From Escherichia coli (GTDB lineage Bacteria; Pseudomonadota; Gammaproteobacteria; Enterobacterales; Enterobacteriaceae), in assembly GCF_024298765.1 (NCBI RefSeq), contig NZ_CP101210.1: DNA of 64,000 bases; one strand, written 5' to 3'. Shown piece by piece: positions 1,245 to 50,434 of this stretch. The stretch's first letter is position 1, and the number at the start of each line of letters is the position of its first letter. Made by a program: the position numbers and the translations under genes. The notes under the pieces are model-generated. The model was given only the letters and a program-made list of their open reading frames with translations, was not told the origin of the DNA and did not search any database.

Positions 1245-2460
1245 TGCTCTGTTCAGAAGTAAATCACTGGAGAATCCTTCCACCCCGATAACCGGGGATG
1301 CCGTTGATACTGATGGGCTGTTCCGGGCAGACGTTTATGTCAGTCCTGAAACTGCGATGAAACTGGCTGCGGTGTATTCCTGTATCTATGTCCTGTCTTC
1401 CAGCCTTGCCCAGATGCCGTTGCATGTTATGCGCAGGCACAATGGGAAGGTTGAGCCCGCACGCGATCATCCGGCGTTTTATCTGGTTCATGATGAGCCC
1501 AATACCTGGCAAACCAGTTACAAATGGCGCGAACTGAAGCAACGTCACATCCTTGGCTGGGGGAATGGGTATACCTGGGTGAAACGTAATCGTCGCGGTG
1601 AAGTCATATCTCTGGATTGCTGTATGCCGTGGGAAACGACGCTGATGAATACTGGTGGCCGATACACCTACGGTTTGTACAACGAATATGGGGCGTTTGC
1701 GATCAGCCCCGACGATATGATCCACATCCGAGCGCTGGGTAATAATCAGAAGATGGGGCTGAGTCCGATTATGCAACATGCCGAAACAATAGGCATGGGG
1801 ATGAGCGGTCAGAAGTACACAGAAAGCTTCTTCAGCGGTAATGCCCGTCCGGCGGGGATAGTATCCGTTAAAAGCGGACTCAATAAGGAAAGCTGGGGCT
1901 GGCTTAAAGAACAGTGGCAGAAGGCATCGCAGGCGTTACGCCGCCAGGAAAACAAAACCATGCTGCTGCCAGCCGATCTGGATTACAAGGCACTGACTGT
2001 GTCGCCAGTTGACGCTCAGATCATTGACATGATGAAGCTGAACCGTTCAATGATCGCCGGTATTTTCAATATTCCTGCGCACATGATTAATGACCTCGAA
2101 AAAGCCACCTTCTCCAATATTTCTGCGCAGGCGATTCAGTTTGTCCGCTACACGATGATGCCGTGGGTGACGAACTGGGAGCAGGAGCTTAACCGTCGCT
2201 TGTTTACCCGCGCTGAGTTAGCCGCCGGGTATTACGTCAGGTTCAATCTGACGGGGCTTTTACGCGGAACTCCGCAGGAGCGCGCGCAATTCTATCACTT
2301 CGCTATTACCGATGGATGGATGAGCCGTAATGAGGCCCGCGCATTTGAGGATATGAATCCGGTTGAAGGGCTGGACGAGATGCTGGTAAGCGTGAATGCT
2401 GCTAACCCGGCAGGAGATTTTAAGCCCCCAAAAAACGATGAGGGAAAAACCAATGAATGA
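1186..2460 (+). CDS. Portal protein (HK97-like family)
   Basis: 424 aa ORF between terminase and prohead protease; ORF-track start is GTG at 1186, alternative GTG at 1234 has an AGGGGG Shine-Dalgarno just upstream. Confidence 0.85.
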   Translation: MLYCWWVHWLWSEGGRVLLDALFRSKSLENPSTPITGDAVDTDGLFRADVYVSPETAMKLAAVYSCIYVLSSSLAQMPLHVMRRHNGKVEPARDHPAFYLVHDEPNTWQTSYKWRELKQRHILGWGNGYTWVKRNRRGEVISLDCCMPWETTLMNTGGRYTYGLYNEYGAFAISPDDMIHIRALGNNQKMGLSPIMQHAETIGMGMSGQKYTESFFSGNARPAGIVSVKSGLNKESWGWLKEQWQKASQALRRQENKTMLLPADLDYKALTVSPVDAQIIDMMKLNRSMIAGIFNIPAHMINDLEKATFSNISAQAIQFVRYTMMPWVTNWEQELNRRLFTRAELAAGYYVRFNLTGLLRGTPQERAQFYHFAITDGWMSRNEARAFEDMNPVEGLDEMLVSVNAANPAGDFKPPKNDEGKTNE

Positions 2461-3055
2461 CCGTGAAATCCGTTGTTACAGCGGTGAGGTGCGTGCTGAG
2501 CGGCATGACGATAACCCGGCGCACATTATCGGTTATGGATCGGTGTTTGACTGTCGTTCTGAGCTGATATTCGGTTCATTCCGCGAAATCATCCGGCCCG
2601 GCGCTTTTGACGATGTGCTTGGTGATGATGTACGCGCACTGTTTAACCACGATCCTAATTTTATTCTTGGGCGTAGTGCAGCAGGCACGCTGAATCTTTC
2701 AGTTGATGAGCGCGGATTACGCTATGACATCCAGGCTCCGGAGACACAGACCATTCGTGATCTGGTGCTGGCCCCGATGCAACGTGGAGATATTAACCAG
2801 TCATCTTTCGCTTTCCGTGTCGCCCGTGACGGTGAGGAGTGGTATCAGGATGAGGACGGGGTTGTTATTCGCGAGATAACCCGCTTTTCCCGTCTGCTGG
2901 ATGTCAGTCCTGTGACATATCCTGCCTATCAGGAGGCTGACTCGGCTGTTCGCTCCATGAAAGCATGGCAGGAGGCGCGCAACAGTGGCGCGCTACAGAA
3001 AGCCATTAATCAACGTATGGCGCGTGAACGCGTCCTGACCCTTCTTAACGCGTAA
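2453..3055 (+). CDS. Prohead maturation protease (HK97 family)
   Basis: ATG at 2453 (MNDREIR...) overlapping the portal stop; position between portal and major capsid. Confidence 0.8.
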   Translation: MNDREIRCYSGEVRAERHDDNPAHIIGYGSVFDCRSELIFGSFREIIRPGAFDDVLGDDVRALFNHDPNFILGRSAAGTLNLSVDERGLRYDIQAPETQTIRDLVLAPMQRGDINQSSFAFRVARDGEEWYQDEDGVVIREITRFSRLLDVSPVTYPAYQEADSAVRSMKAWQEARNSGALQKAINQRMARERVLTLLNA

Positions 3056-3065
3056 AGGAAACATC

Positions 3066-4295
3066 ATGAAACTGCATGAACTGAAACAGAAACGTAATAC
3101 TATCGCAACTGACATGCGCGCCCTGAATGAAAAAATTGGTGATAACGCATGGACGGAAGAGCAGCGCACTGAGTGGAACAAAGCAAAATCCGAACTGGAA
3201 GCGCTTGATGAACGAATTGCACGCGAAGAAGAACTGCGTCGTCAGGATCAGGCGTACATTGAAAGCAATGAGGAAGAGCAGCGTCAGAATCTTGATCCGG
3301 AAAACAATCCGCAACAGGATGAGAAACGAGCTCAGGTTTTTGATAAGTGGATGCGTCACGGTGCCAGTGAGCTGACATCAGAAGAACGAAAGGCGTTGCG
3401 TGAACTTCGTGCCCAGGGTGTAGCTCAGGATGAAAAGGGCGGATATACCGTACCAGAAACATTCCTGGCGAAAGTTGTTGAGAAGATGAAATCCTACGGT
3501 GGCATCGCCAGTGTGGCGCAGATTCTGACCACTTCTGACGGTCGCACTATGGAGTGGGCAACAGCTGATGGTACTTCCGAAGTTGGTGTTCTGCTGGGCG
3601 AAAATGAAGAAGCCGGTGAAGAAGACACCGATTTCGGTATGGGAAGTCTTGGGGCGCTCAAAATGACATCGAAAATCATTCGTGTGTCTAATGAGTTGCT
3701 GCAGGACAGCGCGATCGATATGGAAGCTTATCTTGCCCGTCGCATTGCTGAACGTATTGGTCGTGGTGAAGCCCGTTATCTGATTCAGGGAACTGGTGCT
3801 GGTACGCCTAAACAACCCAAAGGGCTGGTCGCATCTGTGACCGGCACAACACAGACTGCCGCGGCAAATACGGTGAAGTGGCAGGAAATTCTGGCTCTGA
3901 AACACAGCATTGATCCTGCATATCGTCGCGGGCCGAAATTCCGCCTGGCGTTTAACGATAATACGCTGAAACTGATCAGTGAGATGGAAGACGGTCAGGG
4001 ACGCCCTTTATGGTTGCCGGATATTGTTGGTGTGGCACCTGCTTCAGTGTTGAATGTACCGTATGTCATTGATCAGGAAATTGATGATATCGGGGCGGGT
4101 AAAAAATTCATGTTCTGTGGTGACTTTGATCGCTTCATTATCCGTCGTGTGCGATACATGATTCTTAAACGTCTGGTTGAGCGTTACGCGGAATATGATC
4201 AGACTGGTTTTCTGGCCTTCCATCGTTTTGACTGTATCCTGGAAGACACCTCTGCCATTAAAGCGCTGGTGGGGAAAGGTAGCGTTGGTGGTTGA
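3066..4295 (+). CDS. Major capsid protein (HK97 fold, with charged N-terminal delta/scaffold domain)
   Basis: 409 aa; N-terminal ~100 residues highly charged and coiled-coil-like (EEQRTEWNKAKSELEALDERIAREEELRRQ), followed by capsid-like body; follows protease. Confidence 0.85.
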   Translation: MKLHELKQKRNTIATDMRALNEKIGDNAWTEEQRTEWNKAKSELEALDERIAREEELRRQDQAYIESNEEEQRQNLDPENNPQQDEKRAQVFDKWMRHGASELTSEERKALRELRAQGVAQDEKGGYTVPETFLAKVVEKMKSYGGIASVAQILTTSDGRTMEWATADGTSEVGVLLGENEEAGEEDTDFGMGSLGALKMTSKIIRVSNELLQDSAIDMEAYLARRIAERIGRGEARYLIQGTGAGTPKQPKGLVASVTGTTQTAAANTVKWQEILALKHSIDPAYRRGPKFRLAFNDNTLKLISEMEDGQGRPLWLPDIVGVAPASVLNVPYVIDQEIDDIGAGKKFMFCGDFDRFIIRRVRYMILKRLVERYAEYDQTGFLAFHRFDCILEDTSAIKALVGKGSVGG

Positions 4296-6150: not shown

Positions 6151-6321
6151 ATGTTTGTGAAACCTGTTAAAGGGCGGTCAGTTCCTGACCCTGCCCGCGG
6201 TGACCTTTTGCCCGCCGAGGGGCGAAATGTTGATGAGAACAACTACTGGCTGCGCCGTGAAGCAGCGGGTGATATCCGGCGCGTGAATGAAAAGGTGAAT
6301 ACCGATGACGATAAGCTTTAA
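6151..6321 (+). CDS. Small conserved phage protein upstream of tail sheath (56 aa)
   Basis: ATG at 6151, translation MFVKPVKGRSVPDPARGDLLPAEGRNVDENNYWLRREAAGDIRRVNEKVNTDDDKL; overlaps sheath start; not in ORF track (under 60 aa). Confidence 0.4.
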   Translation: MFVKPVKGRSVPDPARGDLLPAEGRNVDENNYWLRREAAGDIRRVNEKVNTDDDKL

Positions 6322-7801
6322 CACCATTCCGTCGAATACGCTGGTTCCGATTTTTTATGCGGAAATGGATAACCAGGCGGCGAATACTGCACAGGACAGC
6401 GGAGCATCGCTGCTGATTGGTCATGCCAATAACGGTGCAGAGATTGTTGCCAACAGTCTGGTGCTGATGCCATCGGCAGACTATGCACGCCAGATTTGTG
6501 GTGCGGGAAGTCAGCTGGCGCGTATGGTCGAGGCTTATCGCCAGACCGACCCGTTTGGTGAACTGTATGTGATTGCCGTTCCTGAATCCACGGGCGCGGC
6601 GGCAACAGTTACGCTGACGGTGACCGGCGCGGCAACCGAAACCGGCACGGTGAATGTTTATGTGGGACGTACCCGCGTGCAGGCTCCGGTGACCAACGGC
6701 GATAACGTCACGACGATTGCCAGCAGTATCCAGGATGCCATCAATGCCGTTCCGGCCCTGCCGTTTACGGCTTCATCTTCGGCAGGCGTGGTCACACTGA
6801 CCGCGCGTCATAAGGGGCTTTGCGGGAATGAAATTCCTGTCAGCCTCAATTACTACGGCTTTGGTGGGGGCGAAGTGCTGCCAGCGGGCGTACAGATTGC
6901 CGTGGCGACGGGGACCGCCGGTACGGGTGCTCCGGTTCTCACCGGCGCGGTGGCTGCAATGGCGGATGAGCCGTTTGATTATATCGGCCTGCCGTTCAAC
7001 GACACGGCCTCCGTTAACACGCTGGTGACCGAGATGAACGATACCAGCGGTCGCTGGAGCTATGCGCGTCAGCTGTATGGTCATGTGTATACGGCAAAGA
7101 TCGGCACGCTGTCAGAACTGGTGACCGCAGGTGACCAGTTTAACCAGCAGCACATTACCCTGGCGGGATACGAAAAAGAGACCCAGACGCCTGCCGACGA
7201 GCTGGCGGCAAGCCGTACCGCCCGCGCAGCGGTGTTTATTCGCAACGATCCGGCACGTCCCACGCAGACCGGTGAGCTGGTGGGTATGCTGCCTGCGCCG
7301 AAGGGGAAACGGTTCACGATGACTGAACAACAGACCCTGCTGTCTCATGGCGTGGCAACGGCGTATGTCGAAAGTGGGGTGCTGCGCATTCAGCGTGATG
7401 TCACCACGTACAGGAAAAACGCTTACGGTGTTGCGGATAACAGCTACCTCGACAGCGAGACGCTGCATACCAGTGCGTATGTACTGCGCAAACTGAAATC
7501 CGTCATTACCAGTAAGTACGGGCGTCACAAGCTTGCCAGCGACGGTACCCGCTTTGGTCCCGGTCAGGCGATTGTCACCCCGGCGGTGATCAAAGGGGAA
7601 CTGCTGGCAACCTACCGTCAGCTTGAGCGTGCGGGGATCGTGGAAAACTACGAACTGTTCAAGCAGTACCTGGTTGTGGAGCGTGATGCCAGCGATCCGA
7701 ACCGCCTGAACACGCTGTTCCCGCCTGACTATGTTAACCAGTTGCGTGTCTTTGCCGTGGTTAACCAGTTCCGTCTTCAGTATTCAGAGGAGTCTGCATA
7801 A
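6305..7801 (+). CDS. Tail sheath protein (contractile tail, Mu-like)
   Basis: 498 aa; followed by tube, chaperone with frameshift, and tape measure in the canonical myovirus order. Confidence 0.85.
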   Translation: MTISFNTIPSNTLVPIFYAEMDNQAANTAQDSGASLLIGHANNGAEIVANSLVLMPSADYARQICGAGSQLARMVEAYRQTDPFGELYVIAVPESTGAAATVTLTVTGAATETGTVNVYVGRTRVQAPVTNGDNVTTIASSIQDAINAVPALPFTASSSAGVVTLTARHKGLCGNEIPVSLNYYGFGGGEVLPAGVQIAVATGTAGTGAPVLTGAVAAMADEPFDYIGLPFNDTASVNTLVTEMNDTSGRWSYARQLYGHVYTAKIGTLSELVTAGDQFNQQHITLAGYEKETQTPADELAASRTARAAVFIRNDPARPTQTGELVGMLPAPKGKRFTMTEQQTLLSHGVATAYVESGVLRIQRDVTTYRKNAYGVADNSYLDSETLHTSAYVLRKLKSVITSKYGRHKLASDGTRFGPGQAIVTPAVIKGELLATYRQLERAGIVENYELFKQYLVVERDASDPNRLNTLFPPDYVNQLRVFAVVNQFRLQYSEESA

Positions 7802-8157
7802 TGGCCCGTATCGGGGGAACCTGTTATTTCAAAATTGACGGTCAGCAGCTATCGCTGACCGGCGGCATTGAGGTGCCCATGAACAGGATGGTTAATGATG
7901 ACATCATCGGCCTGGACGGTTCAGTGGACCGCAAGGAAACTCACCGTGCGCCTTATGTCAAAGGGACCTTCAAGGTGCCGAAGAATTTTCCGGTGGGCAA
8001 AATCACCTCGTCTGATGAGATGACAATCACTGCCGAGCTGGCGAACGGTCAGGTCTATGTACTGTCGTCTGCTTGGCTGCACGGCGAAGCGAACCATAAT
8101 GCCGAAGAAGGCACGGTCGATCTTGAGTTCCACGGTGAAGAAGGGGATTACCAGTAA
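7801..8157 (+). CDS. Tail tube protein
   Basis: 118 aa directly after sheath, start overlapping sheath stop (TAATG). Confidence 0.8.
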   Translation: MARIGGTCYFKIDGQQLSLTGGIEVPMNRMVNDDIIGLDGSVDRKETHRAPYVKGTFKVPKNFPVGKITSSDEMTITAELANGQVYVLSSAWLHGEANHNAEEGTVDLEFHGEEGDYQ

Positions 8158-8426
8158 TGAAAGAGCTTGAGTTAAAGAAACCGATTACCGCTCATGGCGA
8201 GACACTCTCCGTACTGGAGTTTGATGAGCCCACCGGGAAAGATGTCCGCGAGCTGGGGTATCCCTACCAGATGAATCAGGATGAGTCCGTCAGACTTCTG
8301 GCGCATGTGGTATCGAAATATATTGTGCGGCTGGCGAAAGTGCCGCAAAGCTCTGTCGACCAGATGTCTCCGGCAGACCTGAATGCAGCGGCGTGGCTTG
8401 TGGCTGGTTTTTTCCTCCAGGCCTGA
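8157..8426 (+). CDS. Tail assembly chaperone (short form)
   Basis: 89 aa ORF immediately before tape measure; ends just after a T-TTT-TTC slippery heptamer. Confidence 0.7.
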   Translation: MKELELKKPITAHGETLSVLEFDEPTGKDVRELGYPYQMNQDESVRLLAHVVSKYIVRLAKVPQSSVDQMSPADLNAAAWLVAGFFLQA

Positions 8427-8575
8427 CGGCTGAATACCTTACTGATCGCTTCTTTGATTGCGCCAGCTACTGGCGCATTAATCCTTTCGAATTGCTGAAT
8501 ATGCCGATCAGTGAAATTCCCTTGCTGGTCAGTCAGGCAAACAGGATAGAGCAGGAGAAACGCACACATGGCTGA
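8393..8575 (+). CDS. -1 frame extension of tail assembly chaperone (programmed frameshift product, long form 8157..8575)
   Basis: ORF in the -1 frame overlaps the chaperone 3' end; slippery heptamer T_TTT_TTC at 8408..8414; extension ends overlapping the tape measure start. Confidence 0.5.
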   Translation: MACGWFFPPGLTAEYLTDRFFDCASYWRINPFELLNMPISEIPLLVSQANRIEQEKRTHG

Positions 8576-10403
8576 ATTTGAGCTTAAGGCGTTGATCACC
8601 GGTGTCGACAGGCTTTCTCCCGCGCTGTCGAAAATGCAAAAGAAAATACGGGGATTTAAACGCCAGGCGGAAGAAGCGTCACAGGGTGGGCTGGCGCTTT
8701 GTGGCGGACTGGCAGCGGGTCTGACGCTTTCCCTGAAATCTTATGCCGATCAGGAAAACGCCGCCACCGGGCTGAAAGTCGCCATGATGGATGCGAATGG
8801 CGAGGTTGGAAAGCGCTTTCAGGACATCAATAAACTGGCTATTGGCCTGGGTAACCAGCTTCCCGGTACAACGGCTGATTTCCAGAACATGATGCAGATG
8901 CTGGTGCGTCAGGGGATCCCGGCAGAAAACATTCTTGGCGGTGTGGGTAAAGCGACAGCTTATCTTGCGGTACAACTGAAAAAAACACCGGAAGCGGCTG
9001 CTGAGTTTGCTGCAAAGATGCAGGATGCTACCGGAACGGCGTCAGAAGACATGATGGGGCTGTTCGACACTATCCAGAAGGCGTTTTATCTGGGCGTTGA
9101 CGATACCAACATGTTGTCCTTCTTCACTAAAACCAGTTCTGTTCTGAAGATGGTGAACAAGGACGGTCTTCAGGCTGCACAGAGCCTTGCCCCCATCAGC
9201 GTCATGATGGATCAGATGGGGATGAACGGGGAGTCGGCAGGTAATGCCCTGCGAAAAGTTATCCAGTCCGGATTAAGCGTTAAGAAAATCAGGGACGTCA
9301 ATAAAATCATGGCCCGCCAGAAACTCGGGGTACAGCTCGATTTTACTGACGGCAAAGGAAGTTTTGGCGGTCTTGATAACATGTTCAGGCAACTGGCAAA
9401 GCTGCGAAAACTGACCGACGTTAAGCGAACAGGTGTACTTAAGGCAATATTTGGTGATGATGCCGAAACCCTTCAGGTGGTCAATGCACTAATCGATAAA
9501 GGAAAGGATGGCTACGATCAGATCCAGCAGAAGATGAATAAACAGGCCAGCCTGAATAAACGTGTTCAGGCCCAGCTTGGTACGCTGTCCAACCTGTGGG
9601 AGGCAATGACGGGGACCGCAACTAACGGCCTTGCGGCTATTGGCGGCGCATTTTCTGGTGACGCCAAAAATATCACGCAATGGCTGGGGGAGTTGGGGGA
9701 AAAATTCACGAAGTTTGCGGATGAAAATCCCCGGGTTATTCGCGGCGTCGTCGGGCTTGCTGCCGGTCTTGCGATTCTGAAACTGGGATTGATGGGCGTT
9801 GGCAGTGCCATCAGTATTGTCAGCAGGCTCATGTCGATGACGCCGATTGGCATGATTGCGACGGCGATAGCCCTGGCTGCGGGATTAATTATCACTAACT
9901 GGGATGTTGTCGGACCTTATTTTAAGAAACTCTGGGAAACCATTGGTCCTTATTTTGAGACTGGCTGGGAACTCCTTAAGAAAGTTTTTGCCTGGTCGCC
10001 GCTGGGGATGGTGATCAATAACTGGGGGCCGGTTGTTAAGTGGTTTCAGGATATGTGGGACAAGCTGAAGCCAATTATTGAGTGGTTTACCGACAGTTCC
10101 GGTGACACGGTCGATGCCATTAACTCGGCGCAGTGGGGGGCGGGTGCTTATGATGCTTATGGGACGGGAATACCGGCACGGGGATACACACCTTATCCGG
10201 CGGTAGATCCGGCTCAGTCAAACAACGCCTCCGATGCCACAGGCCCGAATCCCTTCATGATTAACAAAGCTTCTGCGCCAAAAGTTGATGGTGAGATCAA
10301 GGTCTCTTTTGTGAATTCGCCTCCGGGTATGCGGGTTATGGAAACGCGATCCAGCGGTTTTGATGTCAGCCATGATGTTGGCTATACGCGCTTTGGCAGG
10401 TAA
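8568..10403 (+). CDS. Tail tape measure protein
   Basis: 611 aa, helix-rich with hydrophobic segment near C-terminus; follows chaperone pair. Confidence 0.85.
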   Translation: MAEFELKALITGVDRLSPALSKMQKKIRGFKRQAEEASQGGLALCGGLAAGLTLSLKSYADQENAATGLKVAMMDANGEVGKRFQDINKLAIGLGNQLPGTTADFQNMMQMLVRQGIPAENILGGVGKATAYLAVQLKKTPEAAAEFAAKMQDATGTASEDMMGLFDTIQKAFYLGVDDTNMLSFFTKTSSVLKMVNKDGLQAAQSLAPISVMMDQMGMNGESAGNALRKVIQSGLSVKKIRDVNKIMARQKLGVQLDFTDGKGSFGGLDNMFRQLAKLRKLTDVKRTGVLKAIFGDDAETLQVVNALIDKGKDGYDQIQQKMNKQASLNKRVQAQLGTLSNLWEAMTGTATNGLAAIGGAFSGDAKNITQWLGELGEKFTKFADENPRVIRGVVGLAAGLAILKLGLMGVGSAISIVSRLMSMTPIGMIATAIALAAGLIITNWDVVGPYFKKLWETIGPYFETGWELLKKVFAWSPLGMVINNWGPVVKWFQDMWDKLKPIIEWFTDSSGDTVDAINSAQWGAGAYDAYGTGIPARGYTPYPAVDPAQSNNASDATGPNPFMINKASAPKVDGEIKVSFVNSPPGMRVMETRSSGFDVSHDVGYTRFGR

Positions 10404-15464: not shown

Positions 15465-16115
15465 ATGCATCGTATAGACACGAAAACCGCGCAGAAGGAT
15501 AAGTTCGGCGCGGGTAAGAACGGTTTTACCCGTGGTAACCCCCAGACCGGCACGCCTGCCACCGATCTGGATGATGACTACTTTGACATGTTGCAGGAGG
15601 AGCTTTGCAGCGTTGTGGAGGCGTCCGGTGCCAGCCTGGAGAAGGGGCGGCACGACCAGCTGCTTACCGCGCTTCGTGCGCTGCTGTTAAGCCGCAAGAA
15701 TCCGTTTGGTGATATCAAATCGGATGGCACGGTGAAAACGGCTCTCGAAAACCTTGGTTTGGGAGAAGCGGCGAAAAGGGATGTGGGCACAGGAGAAAAT
15801 CAGATACCGGATATGTCAGCCTGGAAAAGAAATCCGAGTTCTAATCGCTGGAGAAAATTGCCTGATGGAACCATCATTCAAATGGGAATATCAGCATCAG
15901 GGCCATTAGGCTCACCTGTAAATATCACCCTGCCGATATCTTTCAGCAATACCAATTATTGTGTTGTTGCATCGTACGATAATGCACGGTCAGGTGTGTC
16001 AACAATGGTTAGTTTTGCAGCGTTACCTGTTTCACCATCGCAATTTTCCCTGATGTCATCTGTGACTGAGCAAGGAATAAATCCTTTTGCTTACTGGATT
16101 GCTTTTGGAGATTAA
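15465..16115 (+). CDS. Side tail fibre protein (constant N-terminus fused to currently expressed variable C-terminus)
   Basis: 216 aa; invertase crossover site lies inside the gene at 15742..15767 (codons for LENLGLGE); sequence after the site is noticeably more AT-rich. Confidence 0.75.
15742..15767. repeat. Invertase crossover site (left), gix/pix-like 26-bp site
   Basis: CTCTCGAAAACCTTGGTTTGGGAGAA; its 14-bp arm TTGGTTTGGGAGAA is the exact inverted copy of 17607..17620. Confidence 0.6.
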
Positions 16116-16118
16116 TAA

Positions 16119-16538
16119 ATGGATAGATACTTCTATTCACAAAAAGAAAATGGTTTTTTTACCGATTTAAATAAAGCACCTTCAGATGCTGTTGAGATAA
16201 CCACGGATGAATGGCTGTTACTACTGGATGGTCAGGATAATGGCATGAAAATAGTCAGCAATCAGGAGGGATATCCGGTTTTGACAGAGCAACCACCTTT
16301 ATCAAAAGAAAACCTTATTGCATTGGCGGATTTGAAAAAAAGAAAACTTATTAATGAAGCCAACGAGCACATGAACAGCAGACAATGGCCAGGTAAAGCG
16401 GCGATTGGTCGCCTGAAAGGTGAGGAACTGGCGCAATATAATTTGTGGCTGGATTATCTGGACGCACTGGAACTGGTCGATACTTCCGGTGCGCCAGATA
16501 TTGAATGGCCTACGCCTCCGGCAGTTCAGGCCAGATGA
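16119..16538 (+). CDS. Tail fibre assembly protein (expressed orientation)
   Basis: 139 aa directly after the fibre gene; AT-rich like the expressed fibre C-terminus. Confidence 0.75.
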   Translation: MDRYFYSQKENGFFTDLNKAPSDAVEITTDEWLLLLDGQDNGMKIVSNQEGYPVLTEQPPLSKENLIALADLKKRKLINEANEHMNSRQWPGKAAIGRLKGEELAQYNLWLDYLDALELVDTSGAPDIEWPTPPAVQAR

Positions 16539-22389: not shown

Positions 22390-22752
22390 TGGTGGAGCTG
22401 GCGGGAGTTGAACCCGCGTCCGAAATTCCTACATCCTCGGTACTACATGCTTAGTCAGTCTTTACATTCGCTTGCCAGCTGCGGACGGACACGCCACTAA
22501 CAAACTAGCCTGATTAAGTTTTAACGCTTCAACCCCAGGCAGGGCTTCCACGCGATCTCTTTTGGGTTTGACCTCTCTTGATCCCCGTCCTAAGAGCGGA
22601 GGCTAGGGAGAGAGGGCTCTAAGCAGGTTATTAAGCTGCTAAAGCGTAGTTTTCGTCGTTTGCGACTATTTTTTGCGGCTTTTTACGAGGCCAACCGCCC
22701 CTCGGCATGCACCTTGGGTTTCGCAAATCCCGTCGAATCCAGAATCAGCCCC
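22390..22752 (-). ncRNA. ssrA: tmRNA (SsrA), 363 nt
   Basis: Reverse complement matches E. coli tmRNA from GGGGCUGAUUCUGGAUUCGACGGG to CCAGCUCCACCA; tag reading frame encodes ANDENYALAA. Confidence 0.95.
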
Positions 22753-50239: not shown

Positions 50240-50316
<77 letters not shown>

Positions 50317-50358
50317 AATTTGCACGGCAAATTTGAAGAGGTTTTAACTACATGTTAT

Positions 50359-50434
50359 GGGGCTATAGCTCAGCTGGGAGAGCGCCTGCTTTGCACGCAG
50401 GAGGTCTGCGGTTCGATCCCGCATAGCTCCACCA
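50359..50434 (+). tRNA. tRNA-Ala (anticodon TGC)
   Basis: GGGGCTATAGCTCAGCTGGGAGAGCGCCTGCTTTGCACGCAGGAGGTCTGCGGTTCGATCCCGCATAGCTCCACCA. Confidence 0.95.

What the first reader, a model, noticed from the sequence alone, without database searches (positions are those of the whole stretch)
8393..8575. Programmed -1 frameshift signal in the tail assembly chaperone gene
The 89-aa chaperone ORF ends just after a T_TTT_TTC slippery heptamer (8408..8414); a -1 frame ORF overlaps it and runs to 8575, overlapping the tape measure start. This is the conserved G/GT-type arrangement of tailed phages and predicts a 139-aa fusion product, supporting a functional tail module.
Basis: partly seen in the sequence, partly recalled or inferred. 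Interest (0 to 1): 0.35.

Follow-up and report, generated by a model that had tools for sequence, protein, structure and literature searches.

The report
Tail chaperone -1 frameshift site (SfV-type prophage)
This is a real but ordinary feature: the small tail-assembly chaperone gene of an SfV-like E. coli prophage carries the classic slippery sequence that makes a few ribosomes slip back one base and produce a longer second protein, as in phages P2 and lambda, although no database record examined marks it.

Summary
The window is an SfV/SfI/SfII-type prophage with a Mu-like contractile tail, and its late genes are intact.

The frameshift interpretation is strongly supported by comparison:
- Substitutions switch from frame-0 wobble to frame -1 wobble exactly at the heptamer (p = 7e-8 to 7e-4).
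- All 12 related phage loci analysed in full, from seven host genera and down to about 30% protein identity, keep NNT_TTT_TTN in phase, followed by a -1 ORF ending at the tape-measure start.
- GC-rich relatives keep the T-run against their codon bias (joint P about 1e-7).
- Nine of the 12 have no start codon in the -1 frame.
- The fusion is homologous end to end to P2 E+E' (hhalign 95%), whose proven site GGT_TTT_TTG aligns with this one.

No significant downstream stimulatory RNA structure exists. Efficiency cannot be predicted, and transcriptional slippage on the T6 run cannot be excluded computationally. This is a new, unannotated member of a well-known kind, of low interest except for annotation.

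The parts
8157..8426 (+). Tail assembly chaperone gene, frame-0 product of 89 aa (equivalent to SfV orf13 and P2 gpE). Its ATG overlaps the tube gene stop (TAATG).
   Evidence: Pfam PF10109 Phage_TAC_7 E=1.9e-16. phrog_166 'tail protein' E=7e-24. 98.9% identical to SfV orf13.
8408..8414 (+). Slippery heptamer T_TTT_TTC in X_XXY_YYZ phase: P-site codon TTT 8409-8411, A-site codon TTC 8412-8414. Proposed site of tandem -1 slippage of two tRNA-Phe.
   Evidence: NNT_TTT_TTN is conserved in phase in 12/12 related loci and in 78/80 near-identical IMG/VR loci. It aligns with the P2 site GGT_TTT_TTG. It is kept against codon bias in GC-rich relatives.
8414..8575 (+). The part of the fusion read in the -1 frame: 53 codons (PPGLTAEY...EKRTHG) plus stop TGA 8573-8575. 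Equivalent to P2 E'.
   Evidence: phrog_32181 E=4e-40. tblastn finds it in the -1 frame of 23 phage records. Wobble-phase switch, chi-square p=7e-8, 7e-4 and 7e-6. hhalign to P2 E+E' covers it.
8157..8575 (+). Span encoding the predicted 139-aa frameshift fusion (8157..8414 in frame 0, joined to 8414..8572 in frame -1).
   Evidence: The AlphaFold2 model of the fusion has pLDDT 92.5 and pTM 0.83. The best BFVD matches are tape-measure or tail assembly chaperones of 137-147 aa.
8568..10403 (+). Tape measure protein gene (611 aa). Its ATG overlaps the stop of the -1 ORF by 8 nt (ATGGCTGA), and it has its own AGGAG at 8553-8557.
   Evidence: Pfam PF10145 E=6.8e-27. Full length, 98.9% identical to SfV orf14. 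P2 has the same 8-nt overlap, as do most relatives.
7801..8157 (+). Tail tube protein gene (118 aa), immediately upstream. It is the presumed binding partner of the -1-encoded extension, by analogy with lambda gpGT and gpV.
   Evidence: Pfam PF10618 E=6e-33. The partner role is inferred from PMC5009743 and was not tested.
6305..7801 (+). Tail sheath gene (498 aa). It shows that the module is a contractile, Mu/SfV-type tail.
   Evidence: Pfam PF04984, PF17482 and PF17481.
8420..8431 (+). Marginal 4-bp hairpin GGCC-UGAC-GGCU, 5 nt 3' of the heptamer, with the frame-0 stop in its loop. At most a weak candidate stimulator.
   Evidence: z = -1.4, and 19 of 200 shuffles fold as well. One pair is broken in phage AH07. 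There is no covariation.
8459..8477 (+). Invariant 8-bp hairpin UGCGCCAG-YUA-CUGGCGCA, 44 nt 3' of the heptamer and inside the extension coding region (peptide CASYWR). Its role, if any, is unknown.
   Evidence: All 4 stem wobble sites are invariant in three diverged lineages, while the loop and both flanking wobble sites vary (hypergeometric P=0.024, post hoc). It is absent from the other subgroups.

Best explanation
This is a programmed -1 ribosomal frameshift of the P2 E/E+E' type. Most ribosomes translating the chaperone gene read GGT TTT TTC CTC CAG GCC TGA and release the 89-aa chaperone. A minority slip back one base while the two tRNA-Phe occupy TTT (P site) and TTC (A site). The tRNAs re-pair with TTT TTT (8408-8413), and translation continues in the -1 frame through CCT CCA GGC... 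to the TGA at 8573-8575. The result is a 139-aa protein with the same 86 N-terminal residues and a 53-residue, mainly helical C-terminal extension.

By analogy with lambda gpG/gpGT, and by homology with P2 gpE/gpE+E', both products would bind the tape measure protein through the shared part. The extension would recruit the tail tube protein, so that tube and sheath polymerise around the tape measure. Neither product is expected to stay in the virion.

What is shown here: the anatomy, the protein-level selection on the -1 extension, the nucleotide-level selection on the slip site, and the homology to P2 E+E'. What is inferred: that slippage actually happens, its frequency, and the binding roles.
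For: (1) Anatomy is exact.
(2) ORF1 belongs to Pfam PF10109, 'tail assembly chaperone E, or 41 or 14', and lies between the tube and tape measure genes.
(3) Between the window, Edwardsiella phage EPP-1 and Pantoea phage AH07, 61-66% of substitutions upstream of the heptamer fall at the frame-0 wobble position. After the frame-0 stop, 41-64% fall at the frame -1 wobble position (chi-square p=7e-8, 7e-4, 7e-6). The other two frames are full of stops.
(4) tblastn finds the fusion as two pieces in two frames in 23 phage records, down to 39% identity.
(5) All 12 loci analysed in full, from hosts in Escherichia/Shigella, Edwardsiella, Pantoea, Salmonella, Burkholderia, Pseudomonas/Stutzerimonas and Bordetella, have NNT_TTT_TT[C/T/G] in phase at the homologous protein position. 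In each, the -1 ORF ends within a few nt of the tape measure start. The preceding residue varies (G, N, R, S, P, D) but its wobble base is always T.
(6) In the four GC-rich relatives wobble-T is 8-15% and TTT is the minority Phe codon, yet all four keep NNT TTT, a joint P of about 9e-8.
(7) Nine of the 12 loci have no ATG, GTG or TTG in the -1 frame before the site. The window's GTG 8393 has no Shine-Dalgarno sequence.
(8) A profile of the fusions matches P2 E+E' over 122 columns spanning both parts (95% probability, E=3.5e-8), with ...VAGFF aligned to ...VVGFL. P2 has GGT_TTT_TTG, 91- and 142-aa products, and the same 8-nt overlap with its tape measure gene. The P2 shift is an established -1 frameshift and is annotated in RefSeq.
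(9) U_UU.U_UU.Y is in the most efficient -1 motif class in E. coli and is used by IS elements (PMC4066793).
(10) The fusion gives a confident single-chain model (pLDDT 92.5). Its best viral structural matches are annotated tape-measure or tail assembly chaperones.
Against: There is no experimental evidence for this site. No significant stimulatory RNA structure follows the heptamer: z=+0.12 for the first 60 nt, only a marginal 4-bp hairpin at the canonical spacing, no covariation, and no Rfam match. No conserved upstream SD-like element exists either. In an E. coli reporter the bare U_UUU_UUC motif shifted only 0.12% without stimulators (PMC4066793 Table S3), so the yield could be very low. 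Against that, lambda's own motif gave only 0.28% in the same reporter, while its native product ratio is about 30:1. The window's extension does not reach Pfam PF06528 (P2 GpE/E') by single-sequence HMM. One relative, Paraburkholderia phage IPK (an UNVERIFIED record), encodes Gly-Phe-Phe as GGC TTC TTC with no T-run and must use another site or contain errors.
Confidence: 0.88

Rival explanations
1. Transcriptional slippage. RNA polymerase stutters on the T6 run and adds one extra U to a fraction of the mRNAs. Ribosomes reading those mRNAs normally would make the same 139-aa fusion.
For: The site is a homopolymer (T6, or T7 in the F1055/SfIV/ST64B/phiP27 group). An added U gives exactly the same protein. 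PMC4066793 notes that U7 and A7 runs are depleted in all three phases in E. coli genes, possibly because of transcriptional slippage. Sequence comparison cannot separate the two mechanisms, because both select for the T-run.
Against: From my own knowledge of the field, not tested here: productive slippage by bacterial RNA polymerase is generally reported for runs of about 8-9 or more A or T, and six is short. The run is always in the X_XXY_YYZ phase (NNT TTT TTN), never NNV TTT TTT, in 12/12 loci, although the lineages are few and related. The homologous P2 site is described as a translational frameshift.
Confidence: 0.07
2. The -1 ORF (8393..8575) is an independent small gene translated from its own GTG start. 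One phage record annotates it this way, and PHROGs lists it as a family of unknown function.
For: GTG at 8393 gives a 60-aa ORF. vB_EcoM-689R6 annotates it as a hypothetical protein. phrog_32181 exists as a stand-alone family.
Against: The 20 nt before GTG 8393 contain no Shine-Dalgarno sequence. Nine of the 12 relatives have no ATG, GTG or TTG at all in the -1 frame between the upstream stop and the slip site, yet they conserve the extension. Conservation of the extension begins exactly at the heptamer. In AH07 and phiP27 the -1 frame opens only 7-8 codons before the heptamer.
Confidence: 0.02
3. It is a chance open frame, or a decayed gene whose frameshift is a fixed mutation or a sequencing error in what was a single 139-aa gene.
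For: One IMG/VR contig (L017) carries an extra G just before the T-run, which puts both parts in one frame. This shows that a single-frame version can occur, or can be mis-sequenced.
Against: The two-frame arrangement is present in 78/80 near-identical contigs, in about 1,085 complete E. coli genomes at 90-100% identity, and in all 12 diverged phage loci, several of them viable isolated phages. The short form's stop and the slip site are both conserved, and the wobble-phase switch shows both frames are translated.
Confidence: 0.01

Closest known systems
Bacteriophage P2 gpE / gpE+E' (-1 frameshift at T_TTT_TTG in the FETUD tail operon; Christie et al. 2002, as summarised in PMC3091744 and annotated in NC_001895)
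   Same: Same Pfam family for the frame-0 part (PF10109). The profile of the fusions matches P2 E+E' over both parts at 95% probability. The slip site is at the homologous position (GGT_TTT_TTG against GGT_TTT_TTC). Product sizes are nearly identical (91 and 142 aa against 89 and 139). The -1 stop overlaps the tape measure ATG by the same 8 nt. Neither has a downstream hairpin (for P2; here). Both are contractile tails.
   Different: The last base of the heptamer differs: C here, so the A-site tRNA is Phe, against G in P2, where it is Leu. Sequence identity is low (about 21% in the hhalign alignment; pairwise BLAST E=0.56). The extension does not reach Pfam PF06528 and sits in its own PHROG, phrog_32181. 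The surrounding tail module is Mu-like (DNA circularisation protein, gp44-48 baseplate), not P2-like. The frame-0 stop is 9 nt after the heptamer here and 18 nt in P2.
Bacteriophage lambda gpG / gpGT (-1 frameshift at G_GGA_AAG; Levin et al. 1993; Xu et al. 2004, 2013, 2014, as reviewed in PMC5009743)
   Same: Same gene position (between the major tail or tube gene and the tape measure gene). Same logic of a short chaperone plus a C-terminally extended fusion made by -1 slippage near the end of the short ORF. Both are expected to yield a low fraction of fusion. Neither has a known strong RNA stimulator.
   Different: There is no detectable sequence homology: the Pfam and PHROG families differ. 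The heptamer differs. Lambda has a non-contractile tail. The functional roles (G part binds the tape measure, T part binds the tail tube) are demonstrated for lambda only and are inferred here.
Bacteriophage Mu gp41 (tail assembly chaperone, reported -2 frameshift; Xu et al. 2004 via PMC5009743 and PMC2628397)
   Same: Same Pfam family name (PF10109 covers 'E, or 41 or 14'). The flanking genes are the same (sheath L, tube M, tape measure gp42, DNA circularisation N, baseplate P, gp45-48).
   Different: In Mu the extension lies in the other alternative frame (+1, equivalent to -2), following GGGGGCG. The short form is 145 aa. The window uses -1 at a T-run, as P2 does.

Membership tests
Tail assembly chaperone pair made by programmed frameshift (lambda G/GT - P2 E/E+E' class, Xu et al. 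2004) | Gene located between the major tail/tube gene and the tape measure gene | tested here: met
   Tube 7801-8157 (PF10618), chaperone 8157-8426, tape measure 8568-10403 (PF10145).
Tail assembly chaperone pair made by programmed frameshift (lambda G/GT - P2 E/E+E' class, Xu et al. 2004) | Two overlapping ORFs, the second lacking its own start signals and extending to about the tape measure start | tested here: met
   The -1 ORF is open 8285-8575 and overlaps the tape measure ATG by 8 nt. GTG 8393 has no SD. Nine of the 12 relatives have no start codon at all.
Tail assembly chaperone pair made by programmed frameshift (lambda G/GT - P2 E/E+E' class, Xu et al. 2004) | A slippery sequence in the correct phase within the overlap, conserved among relatives | tested here: met
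   T_TTT_TTC at 8408-8414. NNT_TTT_TTN in 12/12 loci, kept against codon bias. The motif class is shift-prone in E. coli (PMC4066793).
Tail assembly chaperone pair made by programmed frameshift (lambda G/GT - P2 E/E+E' class, Xu et al. 2004) | The extension is a real protein-coding sequence in the shifted frame | tested here: met
   Wobble-phase switch p=7e-8 to 7e-4. tblastn conservation down to 39% identity. phrog_32181 E=4e-40.
Tail assembly chaperone pair made by programmed frameshift (lambda G/GT - P2 E/E+E' class, Xu et al. 2004) | Both products are made in vivo, at a fixed ratio, and both are needed for tail assembly | not testable with these tools
   Needs a reporter assay, western blot, mass spectrometry and genetics.
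Pfam PF10109 Phage_TAC_7 (P2 gpE / Mu gp41) | Score above the curated gathering threshold (25 bits) | tested here: met
   60.3 bits, E=1.9e-16, residues 4-86 against profile positions 2-78 of 79.
Pfam PF06528 Phage_P2_GpE (the E' extension of P2) | Score above the gathering threshold (23 bits) for the -1 extension | tested here: not met
   No hit for the window extension even at E<=10. P2 E' scores 78.7 bits. The Bordetella relative PBb002 scores 15.8 bits, E=0.01. Homology is supported only at profile level (hhalign 95%). The extension is therefore a diverged sister of PF06528, not a member by Pfam's criterion.
-1 PRF cassette with a 3' stimulatory structure (IS3/IS911/dnaX type) | Stable hairpin or pseudoknot 5-9 nt downstream, or an SD-like element 6-17 nt upstream | tested here: not met
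   z=+0.12 (60 nt) and -1.15 (90 nt). Only a 4-bp hairpin at 5-nt spacing, z=-1.4. No covariation, no Rfam match, no conserved SD-like element.

The most novel reading that the evidence does not exclude
The SfV subgroup may use an unconventional cis element. The invariant 8-bp hairpin at 8459-8477 lies 44 nt downstream of the slip site. Its stem wobble positions are frozen across three diverged lineages, while its loop and flanks vary. It could be a long-range modulator of frameshifting, or of translation and mRNA stability just upstream of the tape measure gene. That would help explain how a bare U_UUU_UUC, which shifts about 0.1% in reporters, reaches a useful level. More generally, this family could serve as a model for stimulator-independent -1 frameshifting in E. 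coli.
Probability: 0.08. Interest if true: 0.45.

Novelty: new member of a known kind. Interest (0 to 1): 0.15.

Why it matters
The main value is for annotation. The site is present in SfV, SfI, SfII and related serotype-converting Shigella phages, and in prophages of about one in five complete E. coli genomes (1,085 of 5,426). None of the 14 annotated records examined marks the frameshift. They either leave about 141 nt unannotated between the chaperone and tape measure genes or call the -1 ORF a separate hypothetical protein, and PHROGs lists the extension as 'unknown function'. Recognising it gives the correct 139-aa product and assigns a function to phrog_32181. It also adds a case of a Mu-like tail module using the P2-type -1 T-run site rather than Mu's -2 site. 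It does not change any concept.

Tried and rejected
- **Downstream stimulator.** I folded 41, 60 and 90 nt after the heptamer in the window and 60 nt in nine relatives. Only Burkholderia phage BgVeeders33 folds significantly (z=-3.55), and nothing is conserved. RNAalifold on the SfV subgroup showed no covariation, and Rfam had no relevant match.
- **Upstream SD-like stimulator.** None is conserved.
- **NCBIfam.** No model hits the chaperone, the extension or the fusion.
- **Solved structures.** No homologue by sequence profile or by Foldseek with a confident model (best E=1).
- **Wider sampling.** The IMG/VR scan returned only the 80 best loci, all 97-100% identical. That was useful for polymorphism but not for diversity.
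- **Literature.** Xu et al. 2004, Christie et al. 2002 and the SfV genome paper (Allison et al. 2002) are not held. I therefore could not check whether SfV was already listed in the 2004 survey. Full-text searches for TTTTTTC with phage tail frameshift, and for SfV with frameshift, found no description of this site. The genome-wide E. coli heptamer screen of Sharma et al. lists only lambda-type chaperone clusters among prophage genes.
- **Ribosome collision or stop-codon effects.** I considered these as stimulators and rejected them. The spacing from heptamer to stop is not conserved (9, 18, 30, 48 or 63 nt in different lineages). A ribosome terminating at 8424-8426 would place a trailing ribosome upstream of the heptamer (inference).

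Full report
**1. Observation**

The sequence at 8157-8600 was read and translated directly.
- ORF1 runs 8157..8426 and encodes 89 aa, ending ...AAAWLVAGFFLQA*.
- The frame-0 codons around the site are GGT (8406-08), TTT (8409-11), TTC (8412-14), CTC, CAG, GCC, TGA. TTTTTTC at 8408..8414 is therefore a heptamer in the canonical X_XXY_YYZ phase, 9 nt before the stop.
- The -1 frame is open from 8285 to the TGA at 8573-8575. The mechanically listed ORF starts at GTG 8393.
- The tape measure ATG is at 8568, so the -1 stop and that start overlap by 8 nt (ATGGCTGA).
- Slipping at the heptamer gives 86 + 53 = 139 aa with the junction AGFF|PPGLTAEY.

Every number in the finding is correct. For the window alone, chance would give about 0.2 in-phase heptamers of any kind in the 47-codon overlap. 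The probability that 53 codons remain open in the -1 frame of neighbouring genes is about 0.03.

**2. Context**

- Pfam identifies the tail sheath (6305-7801), tail tube (7801-8157), ORF1 as Phage_TAC_7 (PF10109, 'tail assembly chaperone E, or 41 or 14', E=1.9e-16), the tape measure protein (8568-10403), a Mu N-like DNA circularisation protein and a Mu P-like baseplate hub.
- The first 15.8 kb of the window is collinear with Shigella phage SfV at 97.8% identity.
- Every SfV late gene from portal to gp48 has a full-length, single-piece counterpart at 90-100% identity. Only the fibre genes differ.
- A tmRNA gene at 22,390-22,752, followed by chromosomal genes, probably marks the end of the prophage (inference).
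- The same 900-bp stretch occurs in 1,085 of 5,426 complete E. coli genomes and in phages SfI, SfII, SfV, SKA5 and vB_EcoM-689R6.

**3. The -1 extension is a translated protein**

- The extension matches phrog_32181 (E=4e-40), a family labelled 'unknown function'.
- tblastn with the 139-aa fusion finds it as two pieces in two frames in 23 phage records, down to 39% identity.
- The window, Edwardsiella phage EPP-1 and Pantoea phage AH07 align without gaps over all 419 nt. Upstream of the heptamer, 61-66% of differences fall at codon position 3 of frame 0. After the frame-0 stop, 41-64% fall at position 3 of the -1 frame (chi-square p=7e-8, 7e-4, 7e-6). The two other frames of that stretch contain stops in all three phages.
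- Polymorphisms among 79 near-identical IMG/VR contigs behave the same way: 21 of 25 upstream sites are at the frame-0 wobble position, and 6 of 11 downstream sites are at the frame -1 wobble position.

**4. The slip site is conserved as nucleotides, not just as amino acids**

- In 12 of the 12 loci analysed in full, the chaperone ORF has NNT_TTT_TT[C/T/G] in phase at the homologous position of the protein alignment. A -1 ORF follows that ends at or within a few nt of the tape measure start, mostly with the same 8-nt overlap. The loci are the window, SfV, EPP-1, AH07, F1055, SfIV, ST64B, phiP27, Burkholderia BgVeeders33, Pseudomonas DVM-2008, Stutzerimonas PG1 and Bordetella PBb002.
- The residue before the site varies (G, N, R, S, P, D), but its wobble base is always T.
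- In the four GC-rich relatives wobble-T is only 8-15% and TTT is the minority Phe codon (1/10, 2/15, 2/15, 5/12), yet all keep NNT TTT. The joint chance is about 9e-8.
- Paraburkholderia phage IPK (an UNVERIFIED, unannotated record) shows that the amino acids do not force the T-run. It encodes Gly-Phe-Phe as GGC TTC TTC, and its -1 frame opens only 7 nt before the stop. It must shift elsewhere or contain errors.

**5. Rivals**

- **Independent initiation is rejected.** There is no Shine-Dalgarno sequence before GTG 8393. Nine of the 12 relatives have no start codon in the -1 frame before the site. In AH07 and phiP27 the -1 frame opens only 7-8 codons upstream.
- **A fixed mutation or sequencing error is rejected** by the breadth of conservation. 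One contig (L017) does carry an extra G that fuses the frames, and one (L039) has G_TTT_TTC.
- **Transcriptional slippage on the T6 or T7 run** would give the same protein and cannot be separated from ribosomal slippage by sequence analysis. I rate it unlikely (0.07) for three reasons: the run is short, the phase is always X_XXY_YYZ, and the homologous P2 event is described as translational.

**6. Stimulators**

- The first 60 nt give -11.7 kcal/mol, z=+0.12. Ninety nt give z=-1.15.
- A 4-bp hairpin (8420-8431) sits at the canonical 5-nt spacing with the stop codon in its loop. It is not significant (z=-1.4) and loses a pair in AH07.
- Among nine relatives only BgVeeders33 has a significant structure.
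- Rfam has no relevant match, and there is no conserved upstream SD-like element.
- This matches what is reported for P2 and its Burkholderia relatives, which also lack a hairpin (PMC3091744).
- In the E. coli reporter study of Sharma et al., U_UUU_UUC gave 0.12% shifting without a stimulator, 0.89% with the IS911 elements and 7.6% with the IS3 pseudoknot. It belongs to the efficient H_HH.U_UU.Y class (PMC4066793).
- Lambda's G_GGA_AAG gave 0.28% without a stimulator in the same system, whereas the native G:GT ratio is about 30:1 (PMC5009743). Bare-motif values therefore appear to underestimate native phage sites. The efficiency here cannot be predicted.
- One unexplained feature is an invariant 8-bp hairpin at 8459-8477, 44 nt downstream. 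Its four stem wobble positions are frozen in three lineages while the loop and flanks vary (P=0.024, post hoc).

**7. Comparison with known systems**

- **P2.** P2 has GGT_TTT_TTG at the position that aligns with GGT_TTT_TTC here, products of 91 and 142 aa (89 and 139 here), and the same 8-nt overlap of the -1 stop with the tape measure ATG. A profile of ten fusions matches P2 E+E' over 122 columns covering both parts (95% probability, E=3.5e-8).
- **PF06528.** The extension does not reach Pfam PF06528, the P2 E' family, by single-sequence search. The Bordetella relative does so only weakly (E=0.01). It is therefore a diverged sister of that family.
- **Mu.** Mu has the same flanking genes, but its extension is in the other alternative frame, after GGGGGCG. 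It is reported to use a -2 shift (PMC5009743, PMC2628397).
- **Lambda G/GT.** This is a functional analogue without detectable homology.
- **Structure.** An AlphaFold2 model of the fusion is confident (pLDDT 92.5, pTM 0.83). It has no counterpart among solved structures. Its best matches among predicted viral structures are annotated tape-measure or tail assembly chaperones of similar length.

**8. Novelty and verdict**

The kind is textbook and the protein family is the one in which the P2 frameshift was established, so this is a new member of a known kind.
- None of the 14 annotated records examined marks the frameshift.
- The full-text library holds no description of it.
- I could not read Xu et al. 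2004 to see whether SfV-type phages were in its survey.

Interest is low (0.15). The practical value is correct annotation of a product present in about a fifth of complete E. coli genomes, and a function for phrog_32181.

Noticed in passing
window 8459-8477: Invariant 8-bp hairpin (UGCGCCAG-YUA-CUGGCGCA) inside the -1 extension, 44 nt after the slip site. It is conserved in the window, SfV, EPP-1 and AH07. All four stem wobble sites are frozen, while the loop and both flanking wobble sites vary (P=0.024, post hoc). It is absent from the other subgroups, and its function is unknown.
   Followed up: partly
L017 (IMGVR_UViG_2585427730_000011), equivalent to window 8405-8408: One near-identical viral contig has an extra G just before the T-run (GGCTGG-G-TTTTTTCC). 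This fuses chaperone and extension into one frame, so only the long form would be made. It is either a homopolymer sequencing error or a natural mutant.
   Followed up: partly
L039 (IMGVR_UViG_2585427748_000014), equivalent to window 8408: One contig has T->G at the first base of the heptamer (G_TTT_TTC, a T5 run). This should weaken P-site re-pairing.
   Followed up: no
window 8573 (9 of 79 IMG/VR loci): A T->G polymorphism removes the -1 stop TGA. The fusion then gains two residues and stops at 8579-8581. The change is synonymous in codon 2 of the tape measure gene.
   Followed up: partly
L011 (Paraburkholderia phage IPK, PV588664.1) 830-900: This relative keeps Gly-Phe-Phe but encodes it as GGC TTC TTC, without a T-run. 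Its -1 frame opens only 7 nt before the chaperone stop (GAG GGC GCG TAA), so the slip site is unclear or the record contains errors; it is marked UNVERIFIED.
   Followed up: partly
L001 (E. coli UTAK-10, NZ_CP168987.1) 2268-3899: This genome is 100% identical to the window over 7801-8700, but its tape measure gene is annotated as a frameshifted pseudogene (1837 nt against 1836). The window's copy is intact at 611 aa.
   Followed up: no
window 22390-22752 (- strand): A tmRNA (ssrA) gene lies between the prophage-like part of the window and chromosomal genes (recN, nadK, ffh, clpB, an rRNA operon with tRNA-Ile and tRNA-Ala at 50240-50434). It is probably the prophage attachment site. The window starts inside the prophage, at about SfV coordinate 1207.
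   Followed up: partly
window 15465-16520: The tail fibre and fibre-assembly genes are only 64% and 32% identical to those of SfV, whereas the rest of the late region is 90-100% identical. This is the usual host-range mosaic.
   Followed up: no
L016 (phage Mu, NC_000929) 2950-3135: In Mu the extension downstream of gp41 is open in the +1 (equivalent to -2) frame after GGGGGCG and ends near the gp42 start. This is consistent with the reported -2 shift and contrasts with the -1 T-run used by this otherwise Mu-like tail module.
   Followed up: partly
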